DNA of 64,000 bases from Pelagomonas calceolata (Eukaryota): assembly GCA_918797485.1 (NCBI GenBank), contig CAKKNE010000002.1, positions 1,054,001-1,118,000 on the forward strand, in the 5' to 3' direction. Below the pieces are notes generated by a model that searched no databases, was not told the origin of the DNA, and saw only the letters and a program-made list of their open reading frames with translations. Positions 388 to 54,118 of this stretch are shown in pieces. Numbering within the stretch: position 1 is the first letter of the stretch; every line of letters begins with the position of its first letter. The position numbers were made by a program, and so were the translations under genes.

Positions 388-410
388 CTAGCGGCCTGTA
401 AGACACTAGC
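388..410. promoter_or_regulatory. Motif P copy (putative promoter element)
   Basis: CTAGCGGCCTGTAAGACACTAGC, about midway between divergent ATGs at 195 (-) and 620 (+). Confidence 0.6.
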
Positions 411-619
411 AAGCACAAAATCGGCTGTCGCGAGGCTGTTAGGAGCGATAGGCATCCAAATTGCCTGTAGAGAAGCGCCTGACATAAGCGCCGAGCGACG
501 CGACCTCAAGCCAAACACCAGTTGTCCGTCTCGACGCGGCAAAAATAGAGATTGCACAGAGCAGCTCAGGCCTGCAGTAATAACTCGCGACGCGGCACGC
601 CATCGATGCAGGAAGTAGC

Positions 620-1741
620 ATGAAGATAGCGCTGCTCCTCCTCGCCGTCCAAGCACAGGAAACACCGACGCACTGCGGCCACCCCTGCCCGGCACGAGGC
701 AGCCGCGGCCCGACGAAAAACGTCCACGGCTGGCGCAAGTGGAAGGACTTGGTGCACTACCACATCGCGAAGAACGCGGGCACAACATTAAGAAGCGTGG
801 TCACGAAGCGCTACGGCGGCTTGGAGCTGCACGGGCCCGGCAAGAAGGCGTATGGAGAATACTTTAATGATGCCGGCCGCAAGTGGGCGGGCCGCTACTT
901 CGTGGCCATGGCGCGCGAGCCCACCTCCAAGCTCATGTCGCAGTTCTTTTACGTGAGAGCGTCGCTCGGAGGTGATTTCGGCACGTGGCACCGGTGCGTG
1001 ACGTTTCATGAATATGTTGAGTCCAAAAGGGCGCGGCACAACCACCAGTTTTCCCAATTGGTCGCGGGTAGTAGATTAGCAGCTTGTGATCCGTCTCACA
1101 ATGTATCGTACTTCAAGCGCCCGCGGCACGAGGCCGGTATTACAAAAGCTCAAGATGTTTGTAAGGGAGGCGCTGCGGTCCTCAAGAGCCGCATCCTCGA
1201 GATCCTGAGACAGCCTAGATTATTTGTTGGTTTGGTGGAGGACTTCGACGCTTCATTAGTCTCATTGCAAAGAGAAACAGGTTTACCGGACGCGACGTAC
1301 TGCCACAAGCGCACGACGAAAGGTGCCCTAAACAAGCCGCGCCACTTGACGGAAGACACGCGGCACGCCTCATCAAGGCGCAACGAGCTGGACGAGATCT
1401 TCTACGAGGCGGCCCGAGAGGTGCACGCCTGGAAGCGGTGCTGCTACGGCGTCGACGACGCGGCCGTGGCGGACTTTCGTCGGAAGAATTTGGAGTTCCA
1501 GCACTCGACGGGCTGCCACGTGATTCATGATAGGAAACAGAAGGGTCTAGATAATAGAACGGTGGGAGACCCGAACTGGCACGGCCGCGGCACGGACCAG
1601 TACGGGGCCAAATGTGCGGCTTTGGATCCGAGAAAATACGCGTTGCCGGGCGACTCGGACCAGTGGCGGCCGAAGGAGGACTGGTGCCCGCCTTCCTCGA
1701 AGCTCGTGGACGGGGACTGCGTGCCTCGTGCTAGTGTGTAA
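620..1741 (+). CDS. Secreted/Golgi sulfotransferase-family protein
   Basis: Signal peptide, 5'-PAPS loop HYHIAKNAGTT, 3'-phosphate motif AREPTSKLMSQFFY, and FVGLVEDFDASL and NELDEIFYE segments typical of Sulfotransfer_2/Gal-3-O-sulfotransferase-like proteins. Confidence 0.8.
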   Translation: MKIALLLLAVQAQETPTHCGHPCPARGSRGPTKNVHGWRKWKDLVHYHIAKNAGTTLRSVVTKRYGGLELHGPGKKAYGEYFNDAGRKWAGRYFVAMAREPTSKLMSQFFYVRASLGGDFGTWHRCVTFHEYVESKRARHNHQFSQLVAGSRLAACDPSHNVSYFKRPRHEAGITKAQDVCKGGAAVLKSRILEILRQPRLFVGLVEDFDASLVSLQRETGLPDATYCHKRTTKGALNKPRHLTEDTRHASSRRNELDEIFYEAAREVHAWKRCCYGVDDAAVADFRRKNLEFQHSTGCHVIHDRKQKGLDNRTVGDPNWHGRGTDQYGAKCAALDPRKYALPGDSDQWRPKEDWCPPSSKLVDGDCVPRASV

Positions 1742-2107
1742 GTGGATGTTGTTGTTTTTCTGGCCGCGTCGATGGCGTAGGTGTGAGAGAGTCGCTTATT
1801 GAGCTAGCCCCTCGGGACCCTCACACGCAGGCGTCCAGCGGGTGCCCAGCCCGCACGTTGAAAATCGGGCGGCGCGGCGCGGCGCTGCGGCTGGCGCTGC
1901 ACGCGCAAAAGGGCCATCGCGCACTCTTGCGGCTGCACTGTGTGCACGTCGCACCACCCACAGTTGTTGCCGTGAGGAACTCTCCGAGGCTGCCCTTCGC
2001 GAACTCAGGACCTGTCCAGAGGGCAGCAGCCAAGACCTCACAGAGCCGCGGCCCGAGAGCTCGCACCACCGCGAACGCTTTCGACGCGCGACCACAACGG
2101 CCGGACC

Positions 2108-2512: not shown

Positions 2513-3589
2513 CTAGTGGTAGACGGGTCCGACGCCCGGCGCGACGCCCAGTGCCCCTAGCTCGGTCGCGTCTGCCGCCGTGACCTCGTGCTCGGGCTGC
2601 TTCGAGGCGAACTCCTTCCCGACCTTGTCGGCGTAGAGCGTCGAGTCCGTCCGCGGCGGCCGCGGGTGGCCCAGGTTGTCCTTGATGCGGTCGAGCGCCG
2701 CGAGCTCGGCGCCGGCCTTGACCTGCGCGGCGGCGCCGCGGTGACGGCGCTGCCGGCGAATCCGCGCGCAACCCGACCGTCGATGGCGTGCAGACACGGA
2801 GCTCGCACCGCCTTACAAAACGGCGCGACCTGGTCCTCGTCACTGAATTTGAGGACGTACTCGGCGCCGCCGTGCCTGTGCGGACAAGTCGACTTTCACG
2901 CCGCCATCGACGCGACGTCGCCTCGATGGCGTTTCGGTCCACGGACCCGAGTCGCTGGGATTCGACACAGCCTCGCGCATCTTCTTGTAAATGAGGACCT
3001 TGTGCGGGTCCGACTCGACCTCGGCCGCGAGATCCGCGAGGGGCACGGCGAACTTGGGCACGGCGCCCTTCGTCGAGCCCGGCGGGAAGGCGAAGAGGTG
3101 CGTGCCCTTGACGAGGACGTGGACGCCCTGGCGCGACGCGCAGCAGAAGCATAACGGCACGTCGCGTGCCAACTCGGCGTCGCCCTCGAAGTTGGCGCCC
3201 GTGCGGCCGCGGACGCTCTCGAGCGAGCCGAACTTTTGAGGTGTGCGCTTCGACGACGACAGTCCGAGTAAATCAGACGCGGACTTCATGAGGCCGCGGC
3301 CAAGCGAGCGCCGCGGCTTGACCGCGGGCTTGGCCGGCGGGAATTGTGCGGGCGTCTTGCCGGCGGGCGGCGTCGTTTTCTCCTCGGCGCCGTCGGCGGT
3401 GCCGTACTTGTCGAGGGCACCGGCCTCTGGCGCGTCGGCCGTGCGGTAGACGGCCTGCGGCGTGGCCGGCTTCGCGTCGTCGACCTCCGACAGCGTCGAG
3501 CCTGTCGGCGTCGGTGTCTTGTCGACCGGCGCGTCGGCCACGTCGACGTCGACGTCGATACCGTCGGTCTTGGATTCTGAGGCGCCCAT
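2513..3589 (-). CDS. N-myristoylated PH-domain-like protein; exons 3589-2979, 2875-2809, 2722-2513
   Basis: Starts MGASESK (myristoylation consensus). Removing two introns joins ...HVLVKGTHLFAF...PKFAVPL...KVLIYKKM|HGGAEYVLKFSDEDQVAPFCKA|VKAG..., a PH-like strand/helix pattern in one continuous frame. Confidence 0.7.
2723..2808 (-). mobile_element. Degenerate introner-like intron (86 bp, GT-AG)
   Basis: GTGCGAGC...CGCAG. Contains the ACGCCATCGACG core and its removal restores the frame. Inverted ends and duplication are mostly decayed. Confidence 0.55.
2876..2978 (-). mobile_element. Introner-like intron (103 bp, GC-AG)
   Basis: Ends CTGTGTCGAATC / ...CCGCACAG, 8-bp duplication GCGCGAGG vs GCACGGCG, internal hairpin CGCCATCGA...TCGATGGCG. 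Confidence 0.7.
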
Positions 3590-3812
3590 CTGTCTGCTAG
3601 CTACTTTTGACGCTGTCGAGCGAGAGTATCCCCGCCGGCGCAATCGGCTGCTTTATCAATGACCCCTCTTTATTGACCTATTTCTAGGCGATTTGTGGCC
3701 TAATCAACGCGCCAAAGTCAAGTGGGGAACGCAATAATTGGCGCAAGTCCGCGCAATCAACGGCGACTGCCAGTTTTGAGTCGCTAGGGTACGACGTGGT
3801 CTCAGGTTTGGA

Positions 3813-3836
3813 GCTAGCGGCATGTAAGGCACTAGC
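3813..3836. promoter_or_regulatory. Motif P copy
   Basis: GCTAGCGGCATGTAAGGCACTAGC between divergent ATGs 3589 (-) and 3948 (+). Confidence 0.6.
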
Positions 3837-3947
3837 AAGCCTGCCGTGAAAGCGCGCGCGCCAAGCGCTGCTGGTACGCAGGCTGCAGACTGTGCAAAGG
3901 ACCAATAAATCTCTCGCTCGCGCTGCGCGCACGCATAGCACAAATCG

Positions 3948-5519
3948 ATGCCGCCCTCCACGGCGACGCATGTGATCGATGCCGTCGAGCGTCGCGTCGC
4001 GGCCGCGGTCGCCGTCGCCGGCGGCGGCGCAGCGCTCGCCACAGTGCTCCTACGTCTACTCCTCTGGCAACCCCTCAACATAGCTCAAGCGCTGTGCGTG
4101 GGCCTGGCCGTCGCGGCGTCATTAGCGGCCTCGATGCTGCTCGCCGGGCCCGTGGCCTTCGCGGCGCGCGAGCCGGCGCGGCGCGCAGCATTCTCAATGC
4201 TAGGCCGCGCGGCGGCGGGCGGCGCGGCGGGCGCGATCATGGGACGGGGCGTCGCCGGTGAATTGCTGGGAGGCGCCGTCGCGGGTCTCAGTGATGCGGT
4301 GGCCCGGGGCTGCATGACCCTCGGCACGCGGCCGGACCGCCGCATGGTTTCTGATGTATTGATAGCTTCGTTCATCGCTGCTTTACGGTCGGCGTGCGGC
4401 GCATCCCTCATAGCGCGGGCCTACGGCGACGAATCGAGATATGTTGAGCTGTGGATAAGGAGCGCATTAAGTGCCCTGGCGACGCACCTCCTCTGCGATA
4501 TTTCAAGAAGGTGGCTCGCCTACGCGTGCCGCCAGCCCATTGATATGAGAAGCATTGCCGAGCGCGTGCCCGATAGACGGTTCCAGCCGAAGACGGAGTG
4601 GTCAGTAGCGCTGGCCGTCGAGGCATCAGAATTAGGCGACCCCATCACGGCAAAGACGAAGCGAATCAATGCAACAAAAAAACGGAGCGGCTTCGTCGCG
4701 CGGTCGTCAGCAGACCCCTTCGCGGCCGCGTCGAGTCAGACGCAGCCCTGGCGCGTGCGCATTGATATGCGGCGGCAGGCGTTGCAGGCGGCCGTCACCC
4801 AGGCCTTCGCCAAGGAGACGTCCGTGGACTTTCGAAGTGCGTGGCTCGCGCCCTTTTCAGCGCTCGACCTCGCGTCGGGCGGGTTAATTCTGGGCGACGC
4901 GGCGCTGGACGCGTCGCATCGGCTGGCGAAGTGGCTTTCATTAAGGGCGTTGGGGGACGGGTTGTTGGAGGTTGCGGACGATTCTGCGAGGGACCGGGCG
5001 CTGGACGTCGCGCTGCTCGTGTTGGACGGCCTCACGGTACGTGTAGATTTAGCCACGAACCACGTGGAACGGGACGCGCTGGGTACTGTTAGGGAAGACA
5101 CGCTGGCCTGTGCGATCCGGAAGGGGCGCGCGACCCCGAAAGACCGGTCCTCGCTGCCGGCGTGGCTCCTCGATCTCATTGATCCGCGGCCGCAGCCGCG
5201 CGTCGGCAATCTGATGGTGTCGGCGGCCGAGTGTTCGGCCTGCGCGGCGGCCGCTCGTATCGTGGCCACGTGCTCTTCCTTCAAGAGGGACGGCGCGGCG
5301 CGCGCGGCGGCATGCCTGAACTCGCTCGCCGGCGCGCAGCGGGCGCTGGGCGGCGTGCCGCCGTCTCCAGATAGAGACGCGCTCATGCTCGACGTGGCGC
5401 ACGCGACCGATTCGTTGTGCGCGGCGTTCCGCTCTGATTTATCTCGCTTCGCGTTCGCGCCGGAGTACGCGTCGACGCTGCGGCGGCACGCGGATGCGGC
5501 GGCGTATAACTATAACTAG
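3948..5519 (+). CDS. Multi-pass membrane protein, possibly Ndc1-like nucleoporin
   Basis: 523-aa ORF with several N-terminal hydrophobic helices and a helical C-terminal domain loosely recalling Ndc1. The family call is tentative. Confidence 0.5.
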   Translation: MPPSTATHVIDAVERRVAAAVAVAGGGAALATVLLRLLLWQPLNIAQALCVGLAVAASLAASMLLAGPVAFAAREPARRAAFSMLGRAAAGGAAGAIMGRGVAGELLGGAVAGLSDAVARGCMTLGTRPDRRMVSDVLIASFIAALRSACGASLIARAYGDESRYVELWIRSALSALATHLLCDISRRWLAYACRQPIDMRSIAERVPDRRFQPKTEWSVALAVEASELGDPITAKTKRINATKKRSGFVARSSADPFAAASSQTQPWRVRIDMRRQALQAAVTQAFAKETSVDFRSAWLAPFSALDLASGGLILGDAALDASHRLAKWLSLRALGDGLLEVADDSARDRALDVALLVLDGLTVRVDLATNHVERDALGTVREDTLACAIRKGRATPKDRSSLPAWLLDLIDPRPQPRVGNLMVSAAECSACAAAARIVATCSSFKRDGAARAAACLNSLAGAQRALGGVPPSPDRDALMLDVAHATDSLCAAFRSDLSRFAFAPEYASTLRRHADAAAYNYN

Positions 5520-5735
5520 CCCATGGCTTTCTTGCTTTCCTCCCGCGGTTCCTTGGATTTCCTTCCCGGACCTTCCGAGTCTCGAGTCGTCCCGGGCCGC
5601 GAACGCAGAACTTGCCAGAAGGAGGGCACAAGAGGCCCGGAGCAAGCCACGAAAGCTCATCACCCATCACGGGCGGACCTTTCTGCGGACGGGTACCCCG
5701 CGCCCAGCACCACTTAACCTCAGGCTCAGGCTCGT

Positions 5736-5759
5736 GCTAGTGTCTTACTGGCCGCTAGC
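5736..5759. promoter_or_regulatory. Motif P copy (reverse orientation)
   Basis: GCTAGTGTCTTACTGGCCGCTAGC, 180 bp upstream of ATG 5939. Confidence 0.6.
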
Positions 5760-5938
5760 GCGATTTCATTCACAGTTACTCGGGCTGCCAAGGAGCTGAA
5801 GCGGTGGTTGTTTCATTCGCCCAAGCGTTATTACTGCAGATCGCGATTAATTCTCGACTTCGGCGCAAAGCGGGTCACATCAGGTAGCTCCAACCGCTCC
5901 TCACAGAGGGAGAGAGAGCAGACATAGAGCAGCGCTAC

Positions 5939-6871
5939 ATGCGCGTGCTCCTCCTCCTCACAGCAGCAGGGAGTGCGCTGCGACCACCGAAGATGGCGAC
6001 CCTGAGACAGACGGCCCACGGCCTCGCCGCGAAGACCGTCGCCCGCGAGGACGCGACGACGTCTCGATTACTGGCCCTCGAGGCGGAGCGCCGCGAGTTG
6101 CAAGCCAGACTCGCCGCGAACGAGGAGCGGCAGCGGGCACTAGCTCTAGGCAAGGACGTCGAGCCCAAGCCGCCGCGCGTGCTCAAGAAGTCGTCTTCAG
6201 CGTCGTGCGAAGCGTCCCCAACGGTTTGGTCCGACGAGTGCGATATTGACTACGACGTCGAGGACTCGAGTCCAGCCCTGGCGCCGGACGAGTCGACGAC
6301 GGAGTTTTTACTAGGCGCCGCATCCCGGGGAAGCTGGCTGGTTGGTCTACTGGCGGCGCAGTCGCTGTCCAGTCTCGTCTTAGAAGCGAATGAGGTCGTC
6401 ATCCAGAAACACCCGGTCATCGTCTTCTTCCTGACGATGCTGGTGGGTGCCGGCGGCAACGCGGGCAACCAGGCGGCCGTGCGAGTGATCCGGGGGCTGG
6501 CGGTCGGCGCGGTCGTGCCCGGAGAAAATGGTGCGTCGTTCGTGTTACGGGAGGCGCGCATGGCCCTGGTGCTGGCTGCGGCGTTGAGTGTGGTGGGCTA
6601 CTGCCGCGTCATCGCCTTCACGGCGAACACGTCGTCGACCGAGGCGCTGGCGGTCGCGGCGTCGCTCTTTTTGATAGTGGCGCTCTCGATCGTGCTGGGG
6701 GCAGCATTACCCATCTTCCTCGAGAAGATCAATGCGGGCGCCTCGAATGCGGCGACGACGATCCAGGTGGTCATGGACGTCTCGGGCGTGCTCATCACGT
6801 GCGCGGTGTGCGGCTACCTGCTGGACGGGACGTCGCCTTTAGCGGTATTGCTGCCGGGGGTTGCGGGGTAA
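5939..6871 (+). CDS. mgtE: MgtE-family Mg2+ transporter, probably plastid-targeted
   Basis: RGSWLVGLL, FLTMLVGAGGNAGNQAAVRVIRGLA and TTIQVVMDVSG match the MgtE membrane domain. N-terminal signal plus transit-like peptide. Confidence 0.85.
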   Translation: MRVLLLLTAAGSALRPPKMATLRQTAHGLAAKTVAREDATTSRLLALEAERRELQARLAANEERQRALALGKDVEPKPPRVLKKSSSASCEASPTVWSDECDIDYDVEDSSPALAPDESTTEFLLGAASRGSWLVGLLAAQSLSSLVLEANEVVIQKHPVIVFFLTMLVGAGGNAGNQAAVRVIRGLAVGAVVPGENGASFVLREARMALVLAAALSVVGYCRVIAFTANTSSTEALAVAASLFLIVALSIVLGAALPIFLEKINAGASNAATTIQVVMDVSGVLITCAVCGYLLDGTSPLAVLLPGVAG

Positions 6872-6898
6872 GGTGTGGAGTCTATTCTTTCGCCTGGG

Positions 6899-6946
6899 CG
6901 CGTTGATGGCGTCGAGGGACGCTCTGTTACGGTGCTTGGACAAGTG
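6899..6946 (+). terminator. Motif C+B cassette (putative 3' boundary element)
   Basis: CGCGTTGATGGCGT...TCTGTTACGGTGCTTGGACAAGTG, 28 bp after stop 6871 and homologous to 38382-38439. Function is inferred only from position and orientation. Confidence 0.35.
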
Positions 6947-6958
6947 TTTGCTATTTTC

Positions 6959-6981
6959 GCTAGTGTCTTACATGCCGCTAG
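6959..6981. promoter_or_regulatory. Motif P copy (reverse)
   Basis: GCTAGTGTCTTACATGCCGCTAG upstream of ATG 7227. Confidence 0.6.
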
Positions 6982-7226
6982 TAATCAAACCGCGGCCGAA
7001 TCAAAATTTACTGTGCCCGAGGCTACATACGGGCTCACTGGTGCTTGCTTGTTGCTCACTGTATACCAGCCGGCGCACCGCGAAAGACGCGGTCGAAAGG
7101 CTCGCTCAGAGTGCTGTGCTTGCTCAAAAATACATTGCTGCGTGCTAGACGCCGCTGTGCGACGCCAAACTCACAGAAGTAGCGCGCGCCGCCAATTTAG
7201 CCCGCCGCCGCCAGCAACTAGCTAAA

Positions 7227-8618
7227 ATGCCGCCGCCGCGCAACGCCAGCACCTACAACGCGCGCCCGCCGACGCGCGAGCGCGAGGAGCTCGCGAAGCG
7301 ATGCCTCGAGCGCTCGAAAAACGCTCTACTGGAATTTCAGAAGAAGAGCGCCGCATTGGGCGTCGCCGTGGCGCCGATGACGGCGCCGGACGGGACGACG
7401 GTGGCGTACGACCACTTCGAGGGCGTGCGCGTCGCGCCGCCGGTGGAGAACGCCGTCATCAAGCTCGTGGAGGAGACCGCGCCAGCAATGCCCGCACCGA
7501 AACCGCGGCTGCCGCTCTCGCCGAAGAACACGACCACGACGTCGTCCTGGAAGACGGGGTTCCTCGAAACAAAAAAGACGGACGCGCGCGGCCGCTTCGT
7601 CGCGCCGCCGCCCGCGCCACCCCGCTCTACTGTAACGTGGAAGGCGCCGCCGCCGAAGTCTCCGTCCGCGGACGTGGCGGCCCTGCCGACGCCGACGCTC
7701 GTCGGCGCGCTCGAGGCGGACCTCGGCGCGCGCCTGGGGACCACGCCACAACCGGAGCCGGCCGCGCGCGCGGCGCCGGCGTTCTCGCCGATGCCCGTCG
7801 CTCCCGTCGTCGAGCCGGAGCCGGAGCCAGTCGTTCCCGCGCCGGAGGCGCCGGACGCCGCGCCGGTGTCGCCCGCGCCCGTCGTCGAGCCGGAGCCGGA
7901 GCCGGAGGCCGAGCCGCCCGCCGCTCCCGCGCCGGAGGCGGCGCCTCCGAGCGACGCAGGGGCCACCAAGCCCGAAGCCGAGGAGGAGGAGGACCTTCAG
8001 GCCTTCCTCCGCCGGGGCCGGCGCCTGATCGCCGGGTCCGCCAGCGCCGCGGCCGAGCGCGAAGCACTCCGGGAGCAGGCCGCGGCGGCGGCGGCCGAGC
8101 GCGCGGCCCTGAGCGCGCGCCTCGCGGCCGTCGAGGCCAGCGCCGCCGCCGAGCCCGTCGCGGCCCCGGCGCCCGCCGCAAGGACCGCCGCGGAGCTGCT
8201 CGCCGAGGCCATGGCCACGATCGCGAACGACGAGACGCTAGCGAGCGAACCGAAGGTGCTGCGCGCGGCGACCAAAGCGGCGAAGGTCCTCACGGGCGCG
8301 CCGGAGACGCCGCCGCCCCCCGCGCCGCAGCCGGCGCCCGCGAAGCCCGCGAAGACGCCGTGGGTGCCGCCGCCGGCGCGGTCGCGGAGCCGGTCGCCGC
8401 CGCGGCCCCGGTCGCCGCGGCCCCGGACCGTGCCCGCGCCGCCGCTCCCCGTGCCGTCCTCTTCGCCGCCGGTGCCGCGCGGCCGCACCGCCGACGACAC
8501 GTGGCGCCGGACCGCGGCGGCGTGGCGCAAGCGGCTCGCGGCCATCGAGGCGACGCACAAACGGCTGCGCGCGGGGCCGTTCCCCGAAATGCGGGAGCGG
8601 CCCTTTGTTACTTCTTAA
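7227..8618 (+). CDS. Pro/Ala-rich low-complexity hypothetical protein
   Basis: 463-aa ATG ORF in AAAATG context, with a duplicated PVVEPEPEP segment and short coiled coils. Confidence 0.65.
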   Translation: MPPPRNASTYNARPPTREREELAKRCLERSKNALLEFQKKSAALGVAVAPMTAPDGTTVAYDHFEGVRVAPPVENAVIKLVEETAPAMPAPKPRLPLSPKNTTTTSSWKTGFLETKKTDARGRFVAPPPAPPRSTVTWKAPPPKSPSADVAALPTPTLVGALEADLGARLGTTPQPEPAARAAPAFSPMPVAPVVEPEPEPVVPAPEAPDAAPVSPAPVVEPEPEPEAEPPAAPAPEAAPPSDAGATKPEAEEEEDLQAFLRRGRRLIAGSASAAAEREALREQAAAAAAERAALSARLAAVEASAAAEPVAAPAPAARTAAELLAEAMATIANDETLASEPKVLRAATKAAKVLTGAPETPPPPAPQPAPAKPAKTPWVPPPARSRSRSPPRPRSPRPRTVPAPPLPVPSSSPPVPRGRTADDTWRRTAAAWRKRLAAIEATHKRLRAGPFPEMRERPFVTS

Positions 8619-8694
8619 AGGCGGTCTTTTTGATCTTTTTGGCCGCGTCGGCGGCTTGTGCGAGTTTATATTGGGCTCAGAGGCTCCGCGCGTA

Positions 8695-8714
8695 GCTAGC
8701 TGTAAGACACTAGC
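8695..8714. promoter_or_regulatory. Motif P copy (shortened)
   Basis: GCTAGCTGTAAGACACTAGC upstream of ATG 8835. Confidence 0.55.
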
Positions 8715-8834
8715 CAGCAGGGCCAATTTTTGGCTTTGCGGCGCACGGGCTGCCCTCGCCCGTATAGATGCTCATGCGCAACGCGAGATGATGGCTACGC
8801 CCCCTCGACGACGAATAGTGAGCGCTATCAAAAG

Positions 8835-10045
8835 ATGAGGCTGCTGCTGCTCATCCTTAGCACCACCACAACACTGGTGCAGCCACGCACCGAGTTCCTC
8901 AAGTGTGCGCATCGACTCAAGGCGTACGGCGCGGCATGGCTCGCGCGCACGGAACTCCTCGCGCGCCAGCCCCTGTCTCAGAACAAGGACGCTCTTGAAT
9001 ACGCCTCGTTCCACATATTAATATACAGCATGAGATTGGGCGCTACGGCACTGAAGGCGGTGGACGACAGCTGGTGGGTGAACCACATCAGTGGCTACGA
9101 ACACGGCGTCTTCAGGATGAAAGGAAAAGAAGCGTCCGACACGAATGTGAACGCCATGGTAGAAATACTCACAAACAAACTGTGTGTACCCAGAACGACG
9201 CCGCCGACGTCGACGTTAGCATTAATACCCTTCTACGGCGGCCTCACGCGGGACGGCGCGCGCGACCGCGGAATCGACGAAGAAACGCCGAACACGGGGA
9301 CGGCCCATAGCGTGTCGAGTGGCGCGACGAAGCTGAAAACGCTGAAAGCCGTGCTTTGTTCGGCTCTATCGTTCTGCAAAGCCGCTCTGGTTGGTGTCCG
9401 TGTGGAAATCAAAATTTTACGGCGCGTTCGTGCTGAATCGTTGCGTCGTCCTCCACGCCATCGACGCGACGCTTGCTCGATGGCGTGGCGATGCTGGTTC
9501 CTCATCGCTCGACGGGGCCAGCACGGCCGTGTCATCGCCGTGAAATGACTTCGTGAAGAATTATTGGGTGCACCCAACGCACTGGTTTGATTTCCACACA
9601 GGTCGGCGTCTGTACCCCCGGAGACTACGAGTCTGTTAATGAATTAATAAGGACGCTGCCCGCCGGTCAAGCGCGGGCCGTGCTGTTGAACTGTGCGAAA
9701 GCACCGGCCTACACCCCATATAAACTTCTACGAATGGTCCAGCGCCACGCCAAGGGAAATTTGAACGCGTCGCAAGTCGCGCCGGCCGCGCGCGGTGTCG
9801 TGCCGTGGCTATCGTCTCTCGAGTACGAATTCGTTCTCTACGACGAGGCGGACCAGACGCTCCACTTCGAAGGCACGGCGTTGCGCGACGTCTTCGACGT
9901 TCTGACCCAGCACCCCGATTACTACGTGGCCCCGCAGCGCTACGAGAAGGGGTGGGGCGGCATCCCGCGGTTCGTTCTTCAGGGGAACTTGTCACGGTCG
10001 ATGAACAAGTGCGAGCGATCCTTGCCGCGGCTGGCGTATACATAA
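8835..10045 (+). CDS. Secreted hypothetical protein; exons 8835-9389, 9602-10045
   Basis: MRLLLLILST signal peptide. The spliced join ...CKAAL|VGVCTPGD... links two listed ORFs. A VLYDEADQ segment may be a glycosyltransferase-like acidic motif (weak). Confidence 0.7.
9390..9601 (+). mobile_element. Introner element intron (212 bp, GT-AG)
   Basis: Inverted ends CCGTGTGGAAATC (9398-9410) / GATTTCCACACAG (9589-9601), duplication GTTGGTGT vs GTCGGCGT. Interior is homologous to 27921-28076. Confidence 0.9.
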
Positions 10046-10179
10046 TGTGTAAGATACTTAGTACGAGTTCCCGTCACCGCGACTCCGAGTCGGAGACGAA
10101 GTGCGAGACACTTTGTGAGACGAGCCTGAGGGGCTTGGCGGACGTGGCGTCCACCAAGAGGGCGTTATTCTAAGTTAAT

Positions 10180-18361: not shown

Positions 18362-18625
18362 GATTTGTCAATTCCTAGCTGTCCCGCGTGTCGCCTGAGC
18401 TGGCGCAGGGCCGCGCAGTCGTCTTTTGCCCACCAGCGGCTTTTTCAGTTTTGTTAACCCACACGAGTTGCGCGGGGCGAAATACGGGCGCCGATAGTCC
18501 CGTGCGACAGTCTGGCGTTGTGCAGCGCCACCACTGCGCAGCTGTACGGCAGCTCGCCGGAGCAGAGCTTGTGAACGGCGGGCAGCTCAAATCGAGTACA
18601 CTAGCCAAGCACACTAGCTTTCAGT

Positions 18626-20257: not shown

Positions 20258-20680
20258 TCGTCGCGAAGAATTTTGGACTTGGAGGGCTGCAAAGCTCTGG
20301 GCCTGATAACGAGCACAGGCGTCGTTGCGGGCGCGAGAAAGTGAAGGGGAGGGCTTTGCGGCGAGGTCGAGCTCCTGCTGAGGCTCGCGCAGGGCTGGAA
20401 AGTCCCGCGCTGTGGATTGCAAGGGGCTAAAGCCGTCGAGCTCTGCCTGCCTCCATGGGATTCGCGGCCCTCTGAATCATACGGGGAGTGGTCTTGGGGC
20501 ATTGAGAGGATATGGGAGAGCGAGCAGGGCAGGTAAGCCTGATCGGATTCGCGCAAAACCCGAACGTGCTAGAGACTTGCACGCTAGCTGACAGCCTGCT
20601 CGGCTTTTCCCAACCAAGTGGGTCCGTAGCCGCAAGCAGAGAGTTAGAGTGGCGTTTCTGAGGCCTGCCCTACCGCAGCG

Positions 20681-22652: not shown

Positions 22653-22676
22653 GCTAGTGTCTTACAAGCCGCTAGC
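22653..22676. promoter_or_regulatory. Motif P copy (reverse)
   Basis: GCTAGTGTCTTACAAGCCGCTAGC, 186 bp upstream of ATG 22862. Confidence 0.6.
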
Positions 22677-29237: not shown

Positions 29238-29259
29238 GCTAGTGTCTTTCAACGCTAGC
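29238..29259. promoter_or_regulatory. Motif P copy (reverse, variant)
   Basis: GCTAGTGTCTTTCAACGCTAGC, 197 bp upstream of the LSM5 ATG. Confidence 0.55.
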
Positions 29260-30514: not shown

Positions 30515-30537
30515 GCTAGTGTCTTACAGGCCGCTAG
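30515..30537. promoter_or_regulatory. Motif P copy (reverse)
   Basis: GCTAGTGTCTTACAGGCCGCTAG between divergent PCYT2 and NHP2. Confidence 0.6.
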
Positions 30538-30861
30538 GTCGTGCTCTCTCGCCTGTTTTGCCTCAAAACCACCACCCTCGCTGCCCAATTATCGTTGCGA
30601 GTAGCCTGATACGAACCTAAGACCCAGACGAGTTTACCAGAGACGCAGCGTATTGCGCCGTGTCCGCTTTTTGGCCTTCGCTCCTGGGCTGCAGTAAGGC
30701 TGAAAGCTGCCGCGGAGGGGCTGCGGGGCCGCTTTACGCCAGCGCTGCGAAGCTACGGCACCGCGATTGAAACGCATAATCGCTGCGACGCCAGCGCTGC
30801 GGCGCTCGCGCACCGCGACGCCGTCGCCGCCGCCACGAGACACCGCGCGCAGGCACCGCCC

Positions 30862-34166: not shown

Positions 34167-34189
34167 GCTAGCGGCATGAAGACACTAGC
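34167..34189. promoter_or_regulatory. Motif P copy
   Basis: GCTAGCGGCATGAAGACACTAGC, midway between divergent ATGs 33947 and 34392. Confidence 0.6.
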
Positions 34190-36203: not shown

Positions 36204-36227
36204 GCTAGCGCCCAGTAAGATACTAGC
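36204..36227. promoter_or_regulatory. Motif P copy (variant)
   Basis: GCTAGCGCCCAGTAAGATACTAGC upstream of ATG 36082 (-). Confidence 0.55.
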
Positions 36228-36378: not shown

Positions 36379-36388
36379 CACAGGGATC

Positions 36389-37203: not shown

Positions 37204-37228
37204 GCTAGCGTCCTTTAAACACACTAGC
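37204..37228. promoter_or_regulatory. Motif P copy (variant)
   Basis: GCTAGCGTCCTTTAAACACACTAGC between divergent ATGs 37051 and 37446. Confidence 0.5.
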
Positions 37229-38472: not shown

Positions 38473-38840
38473 GATTCATCGGCGGCGGCCGCGTGTCGCG
38501 TTTTTCATAACAGCATACCTCCTTCCAAGCCGACCCGCCTCGGCACCCCCCCCCCCCCTGAACAATGCGCAACGTTCGCCCGTTCAAGCGACTTCGCAGA
38601 CTACCAAACCGAGCTAGCGTATCATACATACTAGGTGGCCCAGCCAGCGAGGCGGCCAAGCGACGGCCATACGCTAGTCTAGGCCAGCGCGACTGCACAC
38701 AGACGTGTCCAGCGCCACACAGCAGCGGACGAATCTCAAAGTTCGGCCAGGTTCCCCGCTCGCTGTCGCCTTTGAGCTTCATCGCTGGAGGAGCCAAGCA
38801 GCGCCATACGCCGCCGCAGCGGCCGACAAACAAAGGAAAG

Positions 38841-43189: not shown

Positions 43190-43399
43190 GGTTTAGCTAT
43201 TGACGCAGCGGCTGGCGTACGCTTGCCTGTTGCAGGTTGCAGCCTTTGCAGCTACCGCGGGGTCTGGGGGTGCGCTAAAGAGTAGAGCGCTTGTGGTGTG
43301 GTCGCGCACTGTGCTAGGGCTCAACGCAGTCGCTGGTAGCTGGTTGCTAATCGAGTATAGAGATGACAAGTGGAGGCTCTCTGCAGCAGCATAATCACC

Positions 43400-43423
43400 C
43401 TAGCGGCCTGTAAAGACACTAGC
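43400..43423. promoter_or_regulatory. Motif P copy
   Basis: CTAGCGGCCTGTAAAGACACTAGC between divergent genes. Confidence 0.6.
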
Positions 43424-43709
43424 AAGCAACATTCGGGTGCTCAAAGCCGGCGCACAACCATTGTAGCCCTCGCCGACCCTTCGGAGCCTTCATGAGGAGT
43501 CCGGCATCAATACACGCAATCCTGCCATTTTCGGGTCGACCCTAGTTTCGGCTGGTGGTGCCCACAATACATTCGTGCCAATTAGCAGCGAGTGCCATCC
43601 GCGTTCACCACGACACGGACACCCGCCTCTAACTCCCGAAGGGCCAGAGCGCGGCCGTCGCACGCAGCGCAACCAATGCTCTTACAATAATTGCCAAGAC
43701 AGTGACCCA

Positions 43710-45121: not shown

Positions 45122-47088
45122 CTACCCGGCCTTGATCAGCTTCACGATGCCCCGGACCTTGCCCGCCACGCCGTCGCCGTAGAACAACTCGACCAGCCCC
45201 ATGGCGAAGTCCTGGCCCTTGCCTTTTGAGGGGTAGTGCAGCGGCGGCGGGATCGACGTCCGCGCGAAACCCAATTTATCTTCGCAGCACGACCGTGCTA
45301 AGCAGAGCCCGCGCAGGCCCTCCGGGCCCGCAAATTTATCAAATCCCGACTCGCCGACGCCGCCGAACGGTAGCGATTGCGACAAATAAGTCGTGCCCTC
45401 CAAATCGTTCACCGAGGACATACCCGCCTTGAGGCGCGACGCGACGGCCTTGGCCCGAGCGGTAGAAGCCGCGAAAGCGCACGACGACAACCCAAACGAA
45501 CAGGCGTTGGCTTTCGCAATGGCATCCTCGTCCGACGACGTGGGAGCGAAGACGCACATGATGGGCCCGAAGATCTCCTCCTGCGCGATGCGCGCTGTCG
45601 TCGGCACATCTACTAACACGGTGGGCGGGAAGAACGACGTCCCCACTAACTCCTGAGGCGGGATCTTGCCCTGCGATAAGATTCTCGCGCCCTTGCTCAC
45701 CGCATCATCAACTAAACCCTGCAATCGGTCTCTGGACAGCGACCCCATCGTCACCGCGCCGCAATCCACTTTGACATCCTCATTCGACGCACCCACGACC
45801 AATTGATCGGCTAACGGCTTGATCCTCGATAAAAACCCCTCGTAGACCGTCGACCCCACGAAGAACCGCTCGGGACCGGCGCAATTTTGGCCCATGCTCT
45901 GGAAGACGCCTCTCAGAGCAATCTGCGAGATCCGATCCAAGTCGGACGCAGAGCAGTCGTCGCAGACGACGAAGGGGTCCTTGCCGCCCAACTCCAAGAC
46001 TACCGGCGTTAGCGTTTTCGACGCCGTCTCCATGACTATCTTTCCTACTTCCGGAGAACCCACAAAGATGCACTTGTCAATTCCACCACTGACGAGAGCG
46101 GCACCGGCGGCGCCGTAGCCGTGGACCTGTGTGGAAATCAACCAGTGAGTCACGTGGACTTCGCGAACCTCCACGCCATCGAGCCGACGCGGTCACGGCG
46201 ACAACGTCGCGTCGATGGCCTGGAAACTCCACGCCATCGAGCAGACGCAGCTACGGAGACAGCGTGGGCCGCCCGAAATTTGATTTCCACACCGCTCTGA
46301 ACGATCTGCACAAGATCCTCGGGCGCGCCCACGGCCTTCAGGCATTCTCTGAGAGCCGCGCCGAAGTACCCAGCAGCGGACCAGGACGCGTAGGGCGACA
46401 CTTTCACCACAATCCCGTTCCCCGCCATCAGCGCCGCACTCACGGGATTGAAGACGTTGTGGAACGGGTAGTTCCAGGGCACGATCGCGCCGATGACGCC
46501 GAGCGGCCGGTACTCGACCCAGACGTTCTTCGTGAACCACACGAGACTTCCCGTGGCCCGCTTCTCATTCCGTAGTACAGATTCGCCGTTCGCCGCGAGC
46601 CATTTCAGTTTTTCGCAGGTCACGAGCACTTCCCCGAAAATTGCATCAGTGACGGTCTTGCCACTGTCCCTCACGGCCACCTTCGCGATCGTAGCTTGAT
46701 TTTCTACTACAAATCTAAGCATGGTCTTCATGAGTTGTCTCCTTTGTGAGAAAGAAGATTTAGCCCAGACCTCCTGCGCGGCGCGGCATTTTTTAATTTT
46801 GAGCTCGACGGTGTCCTTCGTGTCGGCTCGGACTTCGCCCAGGTAGGTGAGCGTACTCGGGTCCCAACACTTTACCACGGAGAAATCCGGCTTCGCCTTC
46901 TCGTGCTTCAATAAGTCAAATTTCGTCTCGGGCGCCGGCGGCTCGGCGAGCTCCTCGCTCACTACGACCTGCTTGCCGCCGATTGGTAGTAGGATGCTGG
47001 AGAACTGGAGGGCGTAGTAGGTGGCCACGGCCGCGGCGGCGTAGTAGAGGAGCTGCCCGATATCCACGGTGATCTCGTGGGAGTACAT
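45122..47088 (-). CDS. Membrane-anchored aldehyde dehydrogenase (ALDH22/Msc7-like); exons 47088-46303, 46126-45122
   Basis: IVPWNYPFHN, FVGS, LELGGKD, GQNC, EEIFGP and PFGG motifs, with an N-terminal TM. Join LVQI|VHGYG. Confidence 0.93.
46127..46302 (-). mobile_element. Introner element intron (176 bp, GT-AG)
   Basis: CGGTGTGGAAATC / GATTTCCACACAG ends, duplication GTTCAGAG vs GTCCACGG. Shares the GCCCGAAATTTGATT end with 21315 (GCCCAAAATTTGATT in 21960). Confidence 0.9.
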
Positions 47089-47222: not shown

Positions 47223-47246
47223 GCTAGTGTGTTACAGCCCGCTAGC
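47223..47246. promoter_or_regulatory. Motif P copy (reverse)
   Basis: GCTAGTGTGTTACAGCCCGCTAGC between divergent ATGs 47088 and 47456. Confidence 0.6.
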
Positions 47247-49814: not shown

Positions 49815-49837
49815 GCTAGCGGCTGTAAGACACTAGC
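49815..49837. promoter_or_regulatory. Motif P copy
   Basis: GCTAGCGGCTGTAAGACACTAGC between divergent ATGs 49646 and 50057. Confidence 0.6.
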
Positions 49838-50056
49838 AAACCACAAACCCGTGATTAAGGCATATGGTTCGTCTATTAGCTATGGGACATGCTGCCCGAG
49901 GGCTGGGAACGGGCGACTTTTCAGGGCGAGCTGGATACAGGCTTGTTGTTACCCAAGCTGTGCTGGGAGTGGGAGCGTTGTTGTCGTCCGAGCGTTCAGC
50001 AAGCTGCCCCGTGGTCCCTGTGGTCTGTCCTCGGGCGCTGGTGGGCGGGCAGCCCC

Positions 50057-53000
50057 ATGGCCCACGGCCCCTGGGGATCATTGTCTCTGGTGTTTGCTGC
50101 TCTTAGTGTTTGCGGCGCCCTGGGTGGATCCTGCCTCTTCGACTTCGAAGACACCGCCATCGACAGCTGCCCCAGCGGGTGGACCTGCACGGGCGACGCG
50201 CGCGTCGTCTCCCGATACACGTGCGTGTCCGGTTGCGGGACGCCGCTGCCCAACGCCCAGGGCGAGCAGTACTTTTCGATTGGCGGGGACGGCGACACGG
50301 GCACGGCGCAGTCGCCGACGTTCGAACTCCCGTCCGACGCCCAAAGCCTTGAATTCCTGCGGTGCGGCGGCGCGGATTCCCCCTCCGGCGTTTCGGTTCA
50401 CCGCGAGAGCGGCAGCGTGGTCTGCTCAAGCAGTCGCGGCGACGACACGGATTCGTTCTTCTGGGATTCCTGCGACGTCTCCAGCGCCGACGGCGAGAGA
50501 GTCTACGTGCGGATCGTCGACACTCAATCTTCCTCTTGGGGAAAGGTCTTCGTGGACAACATTCGCCTCGACGGCGGCGGCGATGGGTGCGATGATAGCG
50601 GCGATTCTTCGGGTTCAAACTGCGACCGTAGCCTATGCTCGAGCGTCGCCGACGACTGCTGCGCGCCGCTGAGCATTGGCGAGGCGGCGACGTGCCGGAA
50701 CGGCTACGTGGCGCAGCGGACCGGAAACGGGTGCTTTGGGTACGGCGAGGGCGATTACACGTGCTGCTCGACGTCCGCTAGTGATTCAAACTGCGCAGCG
50801 GCGAGCACCGGCGCTTGCCTCGAGGGCGGCGGTGTCGACAACGACTGCTGCGCTACTTGCGGCAACGGGGGCTGCGCGTCTGGTTATACCTATGCTGGTC
50901 AAGTTGTCATCGACAGCGGGACGCTCTCTTCGACGTACCCTGACTTCTACCCTCATTGTGGCACGATGTACTGCGGCAACACGTGCTGCGTGCCGTCGAG
51001 TGGTGGTTCGGAGCCAGACGAGGGCGAGGCCGCGCCCTGCAATGGAGGCCACGATGACGCGGAGCGGATACTAAGCTGTATCAAACAATTCTCCGCCTCG
51101 GAGTGGCTCGGCTGCACCTCAGATGGGAGATACGAGTGCCACTGCAGCAATGACGATGGGGTCAACTACTGCTGCGGTAGCCAGAACCAAGCTGAGGCCA
51201 TCGCGATATGGGAACAATGCCTCGGGGAAGGTGGCTCCTCTACTACTGGATTTACGATCACAAGCTCAAACGTGCATTGGGACGAATGTCCCGGCGAGTG
51301 TGCCGCCATTGGGGGCACATTCGCTTGCATCAGCGACGAGTCGCAGAATGGGCAAGCCTTGGCGGCGTTCGGGGGCAGTTGTCCCGACGGAGCGGACGAC
51401 TGCGGGGCATGGATCGCGGTGAACGATAAGGCGTCGGAGGGCAACTGGATCTGCACGGCCGACGGCAGCACACAAACCTATCAACCTTGGTCTGCCATTG
51501 GTAGTGAACCCAACGGCGGCTCCGGCGAGAATTGCGCGAATATGTGGGGCCCAAACTCGGGAAGAAACGACGGGGCGTGGAACGACTACGGCTGTACCGA
51601 TGCTCGCATGCCATGCATATGTAGGGGCGGGGGCGATGACGAGGACTACTCCTTAACGTACTACGATGACGGGTCGCGCCAGACGTACGAGTGGATGAAG
51701 AGCAGCTGCGCAACAAAGGGCAAGCGCCTGTGCACGTACGGCGAGATTTGCCCCAATGGAGGCCCGCACCAGGCCCCGTACGGCGGACAGCAAGCAAGCA
51801 CTGATATGTGGGCGCCAATAACTCCCGATGCGGGCGAGGGCGGCAGCAGGAACCAGGATTGGGTTCAGATCGGGACGCGTGACGGTGGTATGTGCAACAA
51901 ACACAGCTCGTTTTACGGTGGCGTGCATCCTGACGAGTGCTGCTGTGGAGACTGGTGCAATACGAACGTGCAACAGGTGGCTAAGCGCATATATGCGTGC
52001 TGTGACGGGGAAGGTGGCTCCTCTACTACTACGACCGGTACGAACTGCCGAAGCGACATCTGCACGGACTACGCAGAGGACTGCTGCGCGCCGGACGACG
52101 AGCCCCGCGGGTGCAGCCTCGCGGGCTACGAGGTGCAAGATGACTGGGTGGGCTCGTCGGGCTGGCCATCATGCGTCAGCACGTACGGCCAGGAGTCGGT
52201 GTATCAATGCTGCTCGACGTCCTCGACTGGCTCCTCCGATGCGCTCTTCGTCGCCGGGCCCTCGGGCGGCGACTATCGACGGCGGCGGCGGCGACGACAT
52301 CCGGGCGACGTGTCAGTGCGCCTCGGAATACGAGTGGTGGGACGACCGCCGGCTCTCCGCCGTCGACGAGCCGCGGCGTCTGGGTCACTGCTGCGACTAC
52401 GGTGCGTACTGCTCCTGCATGGAGTCGGAGCTCGGCGCCGGCTGCACTGCGCCCGACTGCGGCGACTGGGACGAGGACGAGGACTGCGGCTCCGACGCAA
52501 CCAGTGGCTCGGACGCAGACGTGACGTGCTCCTTGGTAATCAACGACGAAATTACCGCCGTGTACGTCGACGGGCAGGACGTCACGGACTCTCTCTGCGG
52601 CGAGTGGCCGGCGACGCTCAGATTCTCCAGCGCGGCGAGTCTCTTCGCAATCAGCGGCTACGACAATCAGGGCGGATGCCAGTACGGCGGATTCGCGATG
52701 CGCTGCTCCACGGCGGACGGAACCGGGCCGTGGCACGGCCTGACGGCCGACACGCAGAACTGGCGCGGGACCAACTGGGTCTCTGGGAGCAGTTGGACGC
52801 AACTCGGCTTCGACGACAGTGCCTGGCAGACTCCCTCCGTGGGTGGCGAACCGCAGTACGGGTCCGAACTCGTCGGGGGCGGCGACACGATTTGCGTCGA
52901 GGGCGATTTCTACTTCCGAAGAGAGGTTGATCACCCGACGCCCCTCGAATCGCCCTTCCTCGTCACCGGCGACCTCACCTTCGAAGGCATGACGTACGAA

Positions 53001-53906
53001 GCGGCGCTGGACAACACCAACGTCTTCCTCGCCGCCGTCGCCGATCTCTGCGGCGTGGCCGCGTCCGCCGTGACCGTGGAAATCTCGAGGGCCCGCCGCC
53101 GTCGTCGCCTCGCGGAGGGAATCGTGGTGACGTACACCGTGGGCGTCGCGTCCGCGAACGAAGCTCAGACGGTCACGAGCGCGATTTCGAGCAGCTCGAC
53201 AGCAGACGTCGACGCCGCAATCAGCAAAGCCGCGACGAACGCGGGCGTCGACGACGATTTCGACGGCGTCACGACGACCAACGTGGGTACGCCCACGGCG
53301 ACGGCGTCCGACGACGACGGTGGGTCCTCCAGCGGTAAAGACGACGGGCCGGATGCTGCGTCGGCGGCGACGATCATAGCGTCCGTCGCGGCGGCTATGT
53401 GTGTGGTCTTGATTGGAGTCGTCGGTCTTCTTTACTGGAAGACGCAGCAGGTCCAGGGCCGACCGGTGAGGCCCGTGGGCGCGGTCGCGGTGGAGATGGC
53501 CACGTACGGACAGACGATGGTCGCCCCCAGCTACGTCCTCAAGGCGAACAGCGACGAGGTCTGGCGGGACCCCGCCCCCCGGGCGTCGGCGCCGCCCGGC
53601 CGAAGCTTTTGCATCGACTGCGGTGCGGCGATCCAGGGCCGGTTCTGTGGCGCATGCGGGCGGAATCAGCCCGCGGCGGCTCAGCCCGTGGCGGAACAGC
53701 CACCCTTTGTGGCGCCGACGCTTTTCCGGCGGCAGCCAATGGACAATAATCAAGGCGCGCCGCACAGCCTTCCCGTAGAGATCATCAGCGCCGCCGGACA
53801 AGGGCCGCCGGCCGGCGCTCGACCCGTCCCGCAGGGGTCCGTGGTACAAGGCTCCGTGGTGCAGGGGCCCGCCGTGCAGGAACCCGCCGAGCAGGGGTAC
53901 CTTTAG
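50057..53906 (+). CDS. Cys-rich C-type-lectin type-I membrane receptor, copy 1 (frame break near 52276)
   Basis: Signal peptide MAHGPWGSLSLVFAALSVCGA, beta-sandwich-like FDFE...VFVDNIRL module, CTL with EPN/WND, RRRRRL stalk, TM and cytoplasmic CxxC-x8-CxxC zinc ribbon. Encoded by two overlapping ORFs. Confidence 0.7.
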
Positions 53907-54096
53907 GTCCGTTCGCTTTGTCGAAGAAGAATGATCACTCCCCCTCCCCGCGGCAGATGGTGTTGCCGGCGTCCGCGTATATACCTTTTCTGACAATTGA
54001 CCCAGAGGGGGGCCAACTTAGATCTCGCGAGCAGCCTGTAGCACAGTCCAGGACTCAAGCACTTAAGACTTTTTTGGCAAAACTTGGCTTGGCATG

Positions 54097-54118
54097 GCTA
54101 GCGGCGTAAGACACTAGC
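54097..54118. promoter_or_regulatory. Motif P copy
   Basis: GCTAGCGGCGTAAGACACTAGC, part of the duplicated 5' region. Confidence 0.6.

What the first reader, a model, noticed from the sequence alone, without database searches (positions are those of the whole stretch)
388..54118. A ~24-bp quasi-palindromic motif (P) marks most promoters and no convergent junction
Seen: the consensus GCTAGCGGCMTGTAAGACACTAGC occurs in either orientation at 388, 3813, 5736, 6959, 8695, 22653, 29238, 30515, 34167, 36204, 37204, 43400, 47223, 49815 and 54097. Weaker or partial versions are at about 18597, 20568, 38613 and 59060. There is one copy per intergenic region, about 110-250 bp from the nearest ATG, and often near the middle of divergent pairs. 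I saw none at convergent junctions (2497/2513, 10045/10180, 13398/13508, 27283/27286, 35489/35524, 45059/45122, 48730/48745) or inside CDS. The ends GCTAG(C/T)G...C(A/G)CTAGC form an inverted repeat around an asymmetric core, and the flanking DNA is unrelated between copies except for the duplicated 49815/54097 pair. Inference: an unusually long, near-universal, orientation-independent promoter element, such as a site for a general regulatory factor that opens a nucleosome-free region. A domesticated miniature transposon end is the alternative. I know of no described motif like this.
Basis: partly seen in the sequence, partly recalled or inferred. Interest (0 to 1): 0.9.

Follow-up and report, generated by a model that had tools for sequence, protein, structure and literature searches.

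The report
Long two-way promoter motif in alga
A 22-30-letter DNA motif lies between genes just upstream of where messenger RNAs begin, on either side of it, at about 6 in 10 gene starts in this stretch of a small marine alga's genome, and is likely the docking site of an unknown protein that sets up the alga's promoters.

Summary
The motif is real. All 15 strong copies are present and intergenic, and none is expected by chance. A metagenome scan added 145 copies from marine contigs. The unit is CTAG-(mostly 12-16 nt)-CTAG with a short asymmetric flank consensus. The two CTAG feet are nearly invariant while the middle drifts, which fits selection. In stranded RNA reads, 8 of 10 promoter-type 5' pile-ups lie 16-45 nt outside a copy, on either side, much closer than the ATG. 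A CpG trough and peak phased 140-205 nt from the motif appear on gene-start sides only. I found no target duplication, no shared flanks, no excess of empty sites, no hairpin and no lone half-sites. Corrections: 'near-universal' is 23 of 36 gene starts, and well-expressed genes can lack the motif. Absence from convergent junctions is weak once their shortness is counted (p 0.41 in the window, 0.048 over all loci). Best reading: the site of an unidentified general regulatory factor that anchors a very compact two-way promoter, probably in Pelagomonas. A transposon origin stays open, because the 3' CTAG carries a polymorphic footprint-like 10-bp insertion. I did not find the motif in print.

The parts
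387..410 (+). P, strong copy, divergent junction
3813..3836 (+). P, strong copy, divergent junction
5736..5759 (-). P, strong copy, tandem junction; + RNA 5' pile-ups at 5780 and 5791
6959..6982 (-). P, strong copy, tandem junction
8693..8714 (+). P, short-spacer copy, tandem junction; + RNA 5' pile-up at 8747; orthologue L074 has a full-length P at the same place
18598..18620 (+). marginal P-like site (9-nt spacer, 0.1 bits)
20568..20588 (-). weak P (11-nt spacer, 13 bits), divergent junction; the - RNA 5' pile-up at 20432 is 136 nt away
22653..22676 (-). P, strong copy, tandem junction
29238..29259 (-). P, 12-nt spacer, tandem junction upstream of an LSM-domain gene
30515..30538 (-). P, strong copy, divergent junction; + RNA 5' pile-ups at 30554 and 30562 (NHP2-like gene, 203-nt 5'UTR intron 30650-30852)
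34167..34189 (+). P, 13-nt spacer, divergent junction; - RNA 5' pile-ups at 34146, 34150, 34152
36204..36227 (+). P, strong copy, tandem junction, followed by repeats Q and R
37204..37228 (+). P, 15-nt spacer, divergent junction; 5' pile-ups on both sides (- 37175/37177, + 37247), about 71 nt apart
38613..38635 (+). weak P (9 bits) upstream of the eIF3i gene; + RNA 5' pile-ups at 38660, 38666, 38672
43399..43423 (+). P, 15-nt spacer, divergent junction; - RNA 5' pile-ups at 43355, 43361, 43366; the + gene has almost no reads in these runs
47223..47246 (-). P, strong copy, divergent junction
49815..49837 (+). P, 13-nt spacer, divergent junction; paralogous to 54097
54097..54118 (+). P, 12-nt spacer, tandem junction; paralogous to 49815

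Best explanation
P is a conserved 22-30-bp promoter element lying 16-45 nt upstream of the RNA 5' ends seen on either side of it, and is likely the binding site of one abundant, still unidentified DNA-binding factor that would anchor a very compact two-way promoter. Shown: the anatomy (G/T)AG-CTAG-CGGCCTGTAAGACA-CTAG-CAAGCA with a spacer of mostly 12-16 nt, selective conservation of the two CTAG feet and the central AA and ACA, its place beside RNA 5' ends whichever way it points, and a CpG trough and peak phased 140-205 nt away on gene-start sides. Inferred: a protein with two tethered modules (a dimer or a multi-finger array) grips the two feet and tolerates small spacer indels. It would keep about 70-100 bp free of nucleosomes, let RNA polymerase II load on either side, and set the +1 nucleosome, whose far edge or first linker would be the CpG feature. 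It would be permissive, not instructive: partner genes differ widely in RNA level, and tandem junctions show no poly(A) RNA running back into the upstream gene.
For: 8 of 10 promoter-type 5' pile-up clusters lie 16-45 nt from an outer CTAG (26-56 nt from the centre), 5 on P's 5' side and 3 on its 3' side. For the 7 beside strong copies, the chance of all falling in a 36-nt window of their junctions is about 5e-8 (window chosen after seeing the data). In 41 copies scored without needing the CTAGs (15 window, 26 not picked by the scan pattern), both CTAGs are intact in 39, against a mean of 21.5 (maximum 31) in 300 uniform-decay simulations; chi2 110, reached by 0 of 300. 1 of 160 sites lies in a called ORF, the weakest call of its locus, while about 71% of bases are called coding. 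Of 80 sites with both neighbours called: 42 start/start, 37 mixed, 1 end/end. The halves are not found alone in 106 kb of non-coding DNA outside P (TGTAAGACA 0, right half 1). Orthologous pair L008/L114: P 22/22 identical, flanks 33/43 and 34/41; paralogues 49815/54097: 20/21 against 20/43 and 28/43. CpG contrast: p 4e-13 on 151 start arms, same position in 20 of 20 split halves, falls from 1.59 to about 0.64 under 40-nt jitter, absent on 43 end arms (p 0.82) and when anchored on the ORF edge.
Against: No protein, footprint or chromatin data were obtained. RNA-seq pile-ups only approximate start sites, come from one sample, and only the best-supported rows were shown (15 and 1 rows hidden). 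No pile-up was listed beside the strong copies at 3813, 6959, 22653, 29238 and 36204. Two pile-ups (11961, 20432) have no P within 45 nt. The MA3-domain gene (bins up to 250-420 deep) and gene 13508-18361 (bins up to about 335 deep) have only weak or marginal sites. No 160-190-nt periodicity follows the first CpG feature. Depletion at convergent junctions is modest after length correction. The window's own copy at 8695 is only 18/22 identical to its orthologue. The 3' CTAG carries footprint-like insertions.
Confidence: 0.65

Rival explanations
1. P is itself the core promoter: a basal-machinery element that directly recruits the pre-initiation complex in place of a TATA box or initiator, and can fire either way.
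For: P covers roughly -50 to -20 of the 5' ends, where TBP and TFIIB sit in model eukaryotes (own knowledge). At 37204 the two divergent 5' ends are only about 71 nt apart. No strong TATA or initiator word stands out 18-70 nt from P; only weak T-runs and GCATT.
Against: Distances scatter over 26-56 nt from the centre and do not depend on P's orientation, looser than expected for a basal element (expectation from own knowledge). About a third of gene starts lack a strong P, some of them highly expressed.
Confidence: 0.17
2. P is a neutral footprint or minimal remnant of a CTAG-duplicating transposon that prefers open promoter DNA, so its place reflects insertion bias and not function.
For: CTAG stands on both sides like a target duplication, and indels cluster in the middle. 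A 10-bp insert ending in a new CTAG follows the 3' CTAG in L083 but not in its allele L005, recurs identically in L029 and L107, and its 6-nt core occurs in both orientations, in 6 of 6 loci directly at P. Replitron HUH transposons with short direct terminal repeats occur in Pelagophyceae (PMC10288648, passages).
Against: Uniform decay is rejected and the feet are nearly invariant. No duplication or inverted repeat beyond chance outside the CTAGs; the flank consensus is asymmetric and fades gradually. No excess of empty-site words (5 vs 3.3 and 3 vs 2.7 expected). P is present in all 3 orthologous pairs and the 1 paralogous pair examined, though most of these were found through P.
Confidence: 0.1
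3. P is mainly a boundary in a gene-dense genome: a bound protein stops read-through from the upstream gene, or marks replication origins, and start sites merely share the space.
For: In tandem junctions P lies a median 130 nt from the upstream ORF end. Yeast Reb1, Rap1 and Abf1 act as polymerase roadblocks (PMC5052057, passages).
Against: P is most frequent at divergent junctions, where no transcript ends, and rare at convergent ones. The phased CpG signal is on start sides only. One per 4-10 kb is dense for origins (own knowledge).
Confidence: 0.06
4. P works as a DNA or RNA hairpin or cruciform.
For: The ends are complementary over about 5 bp.
Against: 5 of 5 copies fold no better than shuffles as single-stranded DNA (z -0.5 to +1.5). 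No Rfam match in the window. P lies upstream of the RNA 5' ends seen.
Confidence: 0.02

Closest known systems
Human ZNF143/Staf binding site (SBS) with the adjacent RRACTACAN motif (PMC3082894, passages read)
   Same: Long site, enriched at bidirectional promoters, able to drive transcription both ways, sometimes with a second module just upstream (P has family S upstream in about 6 of 160 sites).
   Different: No sequence likeness. SBS is a degenerate 18-bp site, in the intergene of 24% of 839 bidirectional promoters. P is near-invariant at both ends, has a variable spacer, serves 23 of 36 gene starts here, and has no known protein.
Yeast general regulatory factors Reb1, Abf1, Rap1 (roadblock role: PMC5052057, passages; promoter-opening role recalled)
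   Same: One abundant factor at many unrelated promoters, independent of orientation, organising flanking nucleosomes.
   Different: Yeast sites are shorter, fixed in spacing and usually farther from the start site (recalled). P lies 26-56 nt from the 5' ends, without poly(dA:dT) tracts longer than short T runs.
Oomycete INR+FPR and DPEP core promoter elements (PMC3599244, abstract and section 12)
   Same: Lineage-specific core-promoter motifs of a TATA-less stramenopile.
   Different: They are directional, lie at or after the start site, and INR+FPR is in about 13% of genes. The INR pattern is not clearly enriched near P, and the sequences differ.
Toxoplasma TgAP2XI-5 GCTAGC motif (PMC6631176, one passage)
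   Same: Same palindromic hexamer as each foot of P, bound by a transcription factor at promoters.
   Different: A single 6-bp site in an alveolate. In this alga GCTAGC alone is not enriched outside P (76 vs 88 expected). A lead only.
Drosophila DRE/DREF (recalled, not checked here)
   Same: A promoter motif read by a transposase-derived protein; a precedent for a domesticated origin.
   Different: An 8-bp perfect palindrome; no transposase link is shown for P.

Membership tests
General-regulatory-factor promoter element | Recurs at many unrelated promoters, outside coding DNA | tested here: met
   159 of 160 sites outside called ORFs; flanks unrelated except for neighbouring P copies, small repeat families and duplicated loci
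General-regulatory-factor promoter element | Limited range of distances to start sites, independent of orientation | tested here: met
   8 of 10 pile-up clusters 16-45 nt from P, on both sides; RNA-seq proxy, one sample
General-regulatory-factor promoter element | Position-specific purifying selection | tested here: met
   orthologue L008/L114
General-regulatory-factor promoter element | Nucleosome-depleted region with phased arrays | tested here: inconclusive
   one phased CpG feature but no array periodicity; no MNase or ATAC data
General-regulatory-factor promoter element | Bound by a sequence-specific protein; needed for initiation | not testable with these tools
   no binding or reporter data
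MITE / cut-and-paste transposon | Terminal inverted repeats and a target duplication that differs between copies | tested here: not met
   duplication and inverted-repeat lengths match shuffled pairs for 157 sites; only the fixed CTAG could count
MITE / cut-and-paste transposon | Empty sites or presence/absence polymorphism | tested here: inconclusive
   no excess of empty-site words; P present in 4 of 4 related pairs, mostly ascertained through P; a 10-bp add-on is polymorphic
Helitron / Replitron (HUH) end | Subterminal hairpin and shared internal sequence between copies | tested here: not met
   no stable fold; flank information falls to background within about 6 nt
Oomycete INR/FPR core promoter | YCAYTYY-type initiator at the start site, one orientation | tested here: not met
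   P has another sequence and both orientations; the INR pattern is sparse near P
Structured RNA family | Rfam covariance-model match | tested here: not met
   0 matches at gathering score in 64 kb

The most novel reading that the evidence does not exclude
A transposon-derived CTAG-bounded element was domesticated into the dominant core promoter of this algal lineage: one factor bound to it nucleates polymerase II both ways, about 70 bp apart, for most genes, and its 3' CTAG is still being hit by a mobile element.
Probability: 0.2. Interest if true: 0.9.

Novelty: new variant of a known kind. Interest (0 to 1): 0.72.

Why it matters
How non-model eukaryotes without TATA boxes choose start sites is largely unknown. 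Here one long, nearly invariant word stands at an estimated 3,000-7,500 places (1 per 4.3 kb in the window, 1 extra per 10 kb in 33 loci, scaled to 32 Mb) in what is probably one of the most abundant ocean picoalgae. It gives a ready probe for pulling down the factor, an anchor for mapping promoters and chromatin without 5'-end data, a lineage marker for binning metagenome contigs, and a candidate minimal two-way promoter for genetic tools.

Tried and rejected
No whole genome was held, so genome-wide counts are extrapolated. Viral contigs: 0 hits with two patterns. Prokaryote genomes: 4 hits. L121 looks like a short algal piece inside a chimeric bacterial contig, so its 77 kb (fetched) were not analysed further. 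L122 and L123 are single short MAG contigs, probably mis-binned, and were not tested further; L124 (27% GC) is probably chance. Hairpin, Rfam, target duplications and longer inverted repeats, empty sites and lone halves: all negative. Nucleosome-length periodicity of CpG, GC or WW along 111 arms: none at 160-190 nt; some power at 110 and 240-250 nt that I do not interpret. A directional element that picks the productive side: only weak k-mers, not corrected for multiple testing. Huff and Zilberman 2014 could not be read; linker methylation in Aureococcus is cited second-hand (PMC9998398, passages), and CG enrichment of linkers is recalled. Earlier findings of the scan: nothing in 3 look-ups. 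Distant pelagophytes such as Aureococcus could not be reached. L083 and L114 were dropped from counts as duplicates of L005 and L008. bioRxiv supplements (genome paper) were not seen and may hold repeat tables that include P, Q, R or S.

Full report
Setting. The window is gene-dense eukaryotic DNA of about 63% GC, with spliced introns of 203 and 212 nt (GT..AG) and 85 nt (GC..AG). Two of 3 proteins looked up lie on a 6.14-Mb contig. This fits Pelagomonas calceolata as described (32.4 Mb in 6 contigs, 63% GC, introner introns near 210 nt; bioRxiv 10.1101/2021.10.25.465678, passages and section 17). No tool named the organism, so the name is my inference. No whole genome was held.

Observation. 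The consensus has 8 matches within 3 mismatches against 0 expected. A gapped scan finds all 15 strong copies, 9 on + and 6 on -, with 0 in Markov controls. Of the four weak sites, 20568 and 38613 are plausible, 18597 is marginal and 59060 is a half-site. By my hand-made gene list, P is in 8 of 11 divergent, 7 of 14 tandem and 0 of 10 convergent junctions, which is 23 of 36 gene starts. Convergent junctions hold only 6% of usable intergenic bases, so their emptiness in the window proves little (p 0.41).

Wider sample. After dropping 2 duplicates I scored 160 sites: 15 in the window, 119 picked by the pattern and 26 further copies. Genes were called with a codon model that got the strand right for 29 of 29 window genes in cross-validation. 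One site of 160 falls in a called ORF, the weakest call of its locus. Of the 80 sites with both neighbours called, 42 lie between two starts, 37 between a start and an end, and 1 between two ends; 4.7 were expected by length, p 0.048. Viral contigs gave 0 hits; prokaryote genomes gave 4, which look like contamination or chance.

Anatomy. The extended consensus is (G/T)AG CTAG CGGCCTGTAAGACA CTAG CAAGCA, and information fades to background within about 6 nt. Spacers in 38 copies (window copies plus those not picked by the pattern): 14 nt in 23, 13 or 15 in 5 each, 12 in 3, 10 and 16 in 1 each. In the 41 copies scored without needing the CTAGs, both are intact in 39, against 21.5 under uniform decay with the same score filter, while middle positions vary with several alleles each. 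The window's copies shaped the original consensus, which slightly favours this result. The halves do not occur alone and empty-site words are not in excess. There is no hairpin, no target duplication and no longer inverted repeat.

Transcript starts. Stranded poly(A) reads of one sample were laid on 28400-44400 (4 runs) and 3001-23000 (2 runs). Twelve 5'-type pile-up clusters were shown. I set aside 21394 (multi-mapping intron repeat) and 15556 (inside a gene). Of the other 10, 8 lie 16-45 nt outside an outer CTAG, 26-56 nt from the centre, 5 on P's 5' side and 3 on its 3' side. At 37204 both directions start about 71 nt apart. The two exceptions are 11961 (no P) and 20432 (weak site 136 nt away). 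So P sits beside the start of the RNA, not 110-250 nt from it; the ATG distance mostly reflects long 5' UTRs. P is neither necessary nor sufficient for expression. Genes with only weak sites reach depths of 250-420, the + partner at 43400 has almost no reads, and tandem copies at 5736 and 29238 show almost no poly(A) RNA running backwards. Limits: these are fragment ends, not caps, and 16 rows were hidden.

A phased signal. On gene-start arms, CpG frequency drops to about 0.065-0.07 at 140-170 nt from P's centre, with TG and CA rising, and peaks near 0.14 at 185-205 nt. The windows were chosen after the fact. But the position repeats in 20 of 20 split halves, on both sides of P, in the window alone (22 arms, p 3e-4), in 76 uncalled arms (p 0.01) and in all three classes of ORF distance, most weakly in the nearest. 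It fades under 40-nt jitter, and it is absent on end arms and when anchored on the ORF edge. The related pelagophyte Aureococcus has heavy linker methylation linked to DNMT5 (PMC9998398, passage). A +1 nucleosome followed by a CG-rich first linker would fit, but this is inference, and no array periodicity was found.

Conservation. The orthologue L074 (83-94% identical to window 8253-9113) keeps a full P at the same place across a 430-nt difference next to it, where the window's copy has a shortened spacer. L008/L114 keep P at 22/22 with flanks near 80%. Distant pelagophytes could not be tested.

The transposon question. P fails the tests for a current element. Yet its 3' CTAG can carry a 10-nt add-on that ends in a new CTAG. 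It is present in L083 and absent in the allele L005, identical at L029 and L107, and its 6-nt core appears in both orientations and only at P, in 6 of 6 loci. This looks like the footprint of an element that targets P, or a clue to how P arose. Three other small repeat families (Q, R, S) sit near P in fixed orientation. Replitrons with direct terminal repeats are reported in Pelagophyceae (PMC10288648, passages). Origin and present function are separate questions; the selection test speaks to function.

Comparison and novelty. P works like a ZNF143 site or a yeast general-regulatory-factor site, but shares no sequence with them, and membership cannot be shown without the protein. A full-text search for four 11-15-letter pieces of the motif listed 1 paper, on yeast diphthamide genes, which I did not open. 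Searches for Pelagomonas or pelagophyte promoter motifs listed nothing relevant (one listed Aureococcus paper reports only viral promoter motifs in the passages seen). The genome preprint has 0 occurrences of 'motif' or 'promoter'. The library lacks most subscription papers and bioRxiv supplements.

Verdict. Real, functional by sequence evidence, promoter-proximal and two-sided; not found in print. Most likely the site of a general regulatory factor (0.65), then a basal element (0.17), a neutral footprint (0.10), a boundary or origin (0.06) and a hairpin (0.02). Interest 0.72.

Noticed in passing
window 6926-6945, 18712-18765, 22609-22626, 36243-36300, 38413-38470, 39924-39945; L022, L023, L056, L061: Repeat Q and its tail TCCTAGCACCGTAAC point toward a gene's 3' end in 10 of the 10 cases with both neighbours called (9 start/end, 1 end/end; 11 found), often between that end and P. 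The tail resembles P's left part and is fused to P's 3' CTAG in L061. The head looks Helitron-like (recalled), but folds no better than shuffles. A possible terminator or boundary partner of P.
   Followed up: partly
window 18627-18680 and 36315-36380; L004: Repeat R (G-rich, ending in AACTAG), also facing a gene 3' end in 3 of 3 cases; reads from other loci carry it.
   Followed up: partly
L005:1349, L009:752, L023:1439, L049:734 (also L015, L022): Repeat S, about 25 nt, lies some 10-25 nt before P's 5' foot in the same orientation with unrelated spacers: a possible second module.
   Followed up: partly
L083 vs L005; L029, L107, L030, L040, L069: Polymorphic footprint-like 10-nt add-on at P's 3' CTAG, core in both orientations.
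   Followed up: partly
window 17008-18341: Plus-strand RNA at depth about 14-30, antisense to the long minus-strand gene 13508-18361, and a plus-strand pile-up at 15556.
   Followed up: no
window 28769-28784: The LSM gene ends only about 15 nt before the ATG of the next minus-strand gene, and minus-strand RNA has similar depth in the bins on both sides: overlapping UTRs or a shared transcript.
   Followed up: no
window 9389-9600, 21315-21399, 24605-24842, 27934-28075, 46127-46295: Introner-type introns with shared terminal repeats; splicing is seen for the first two. None holds P.
   Followed up: partly
window 22862-27283: A long gene joining a peptidase M3-like part with a weak methyl-CpG-binding-domain hit (E 9e-5).
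   Followed up: no
window 49889-57771: Tandem pair of duplicated C-type lectin / DUF7495 genes, with frame breaks in the ORF list.
   Followed up: no
L121 (G001:C13): A 77-kb bacterial MAG contig appears to hold a short algal piece with one P: likely a chimeric assembly.
   Followed up: partly
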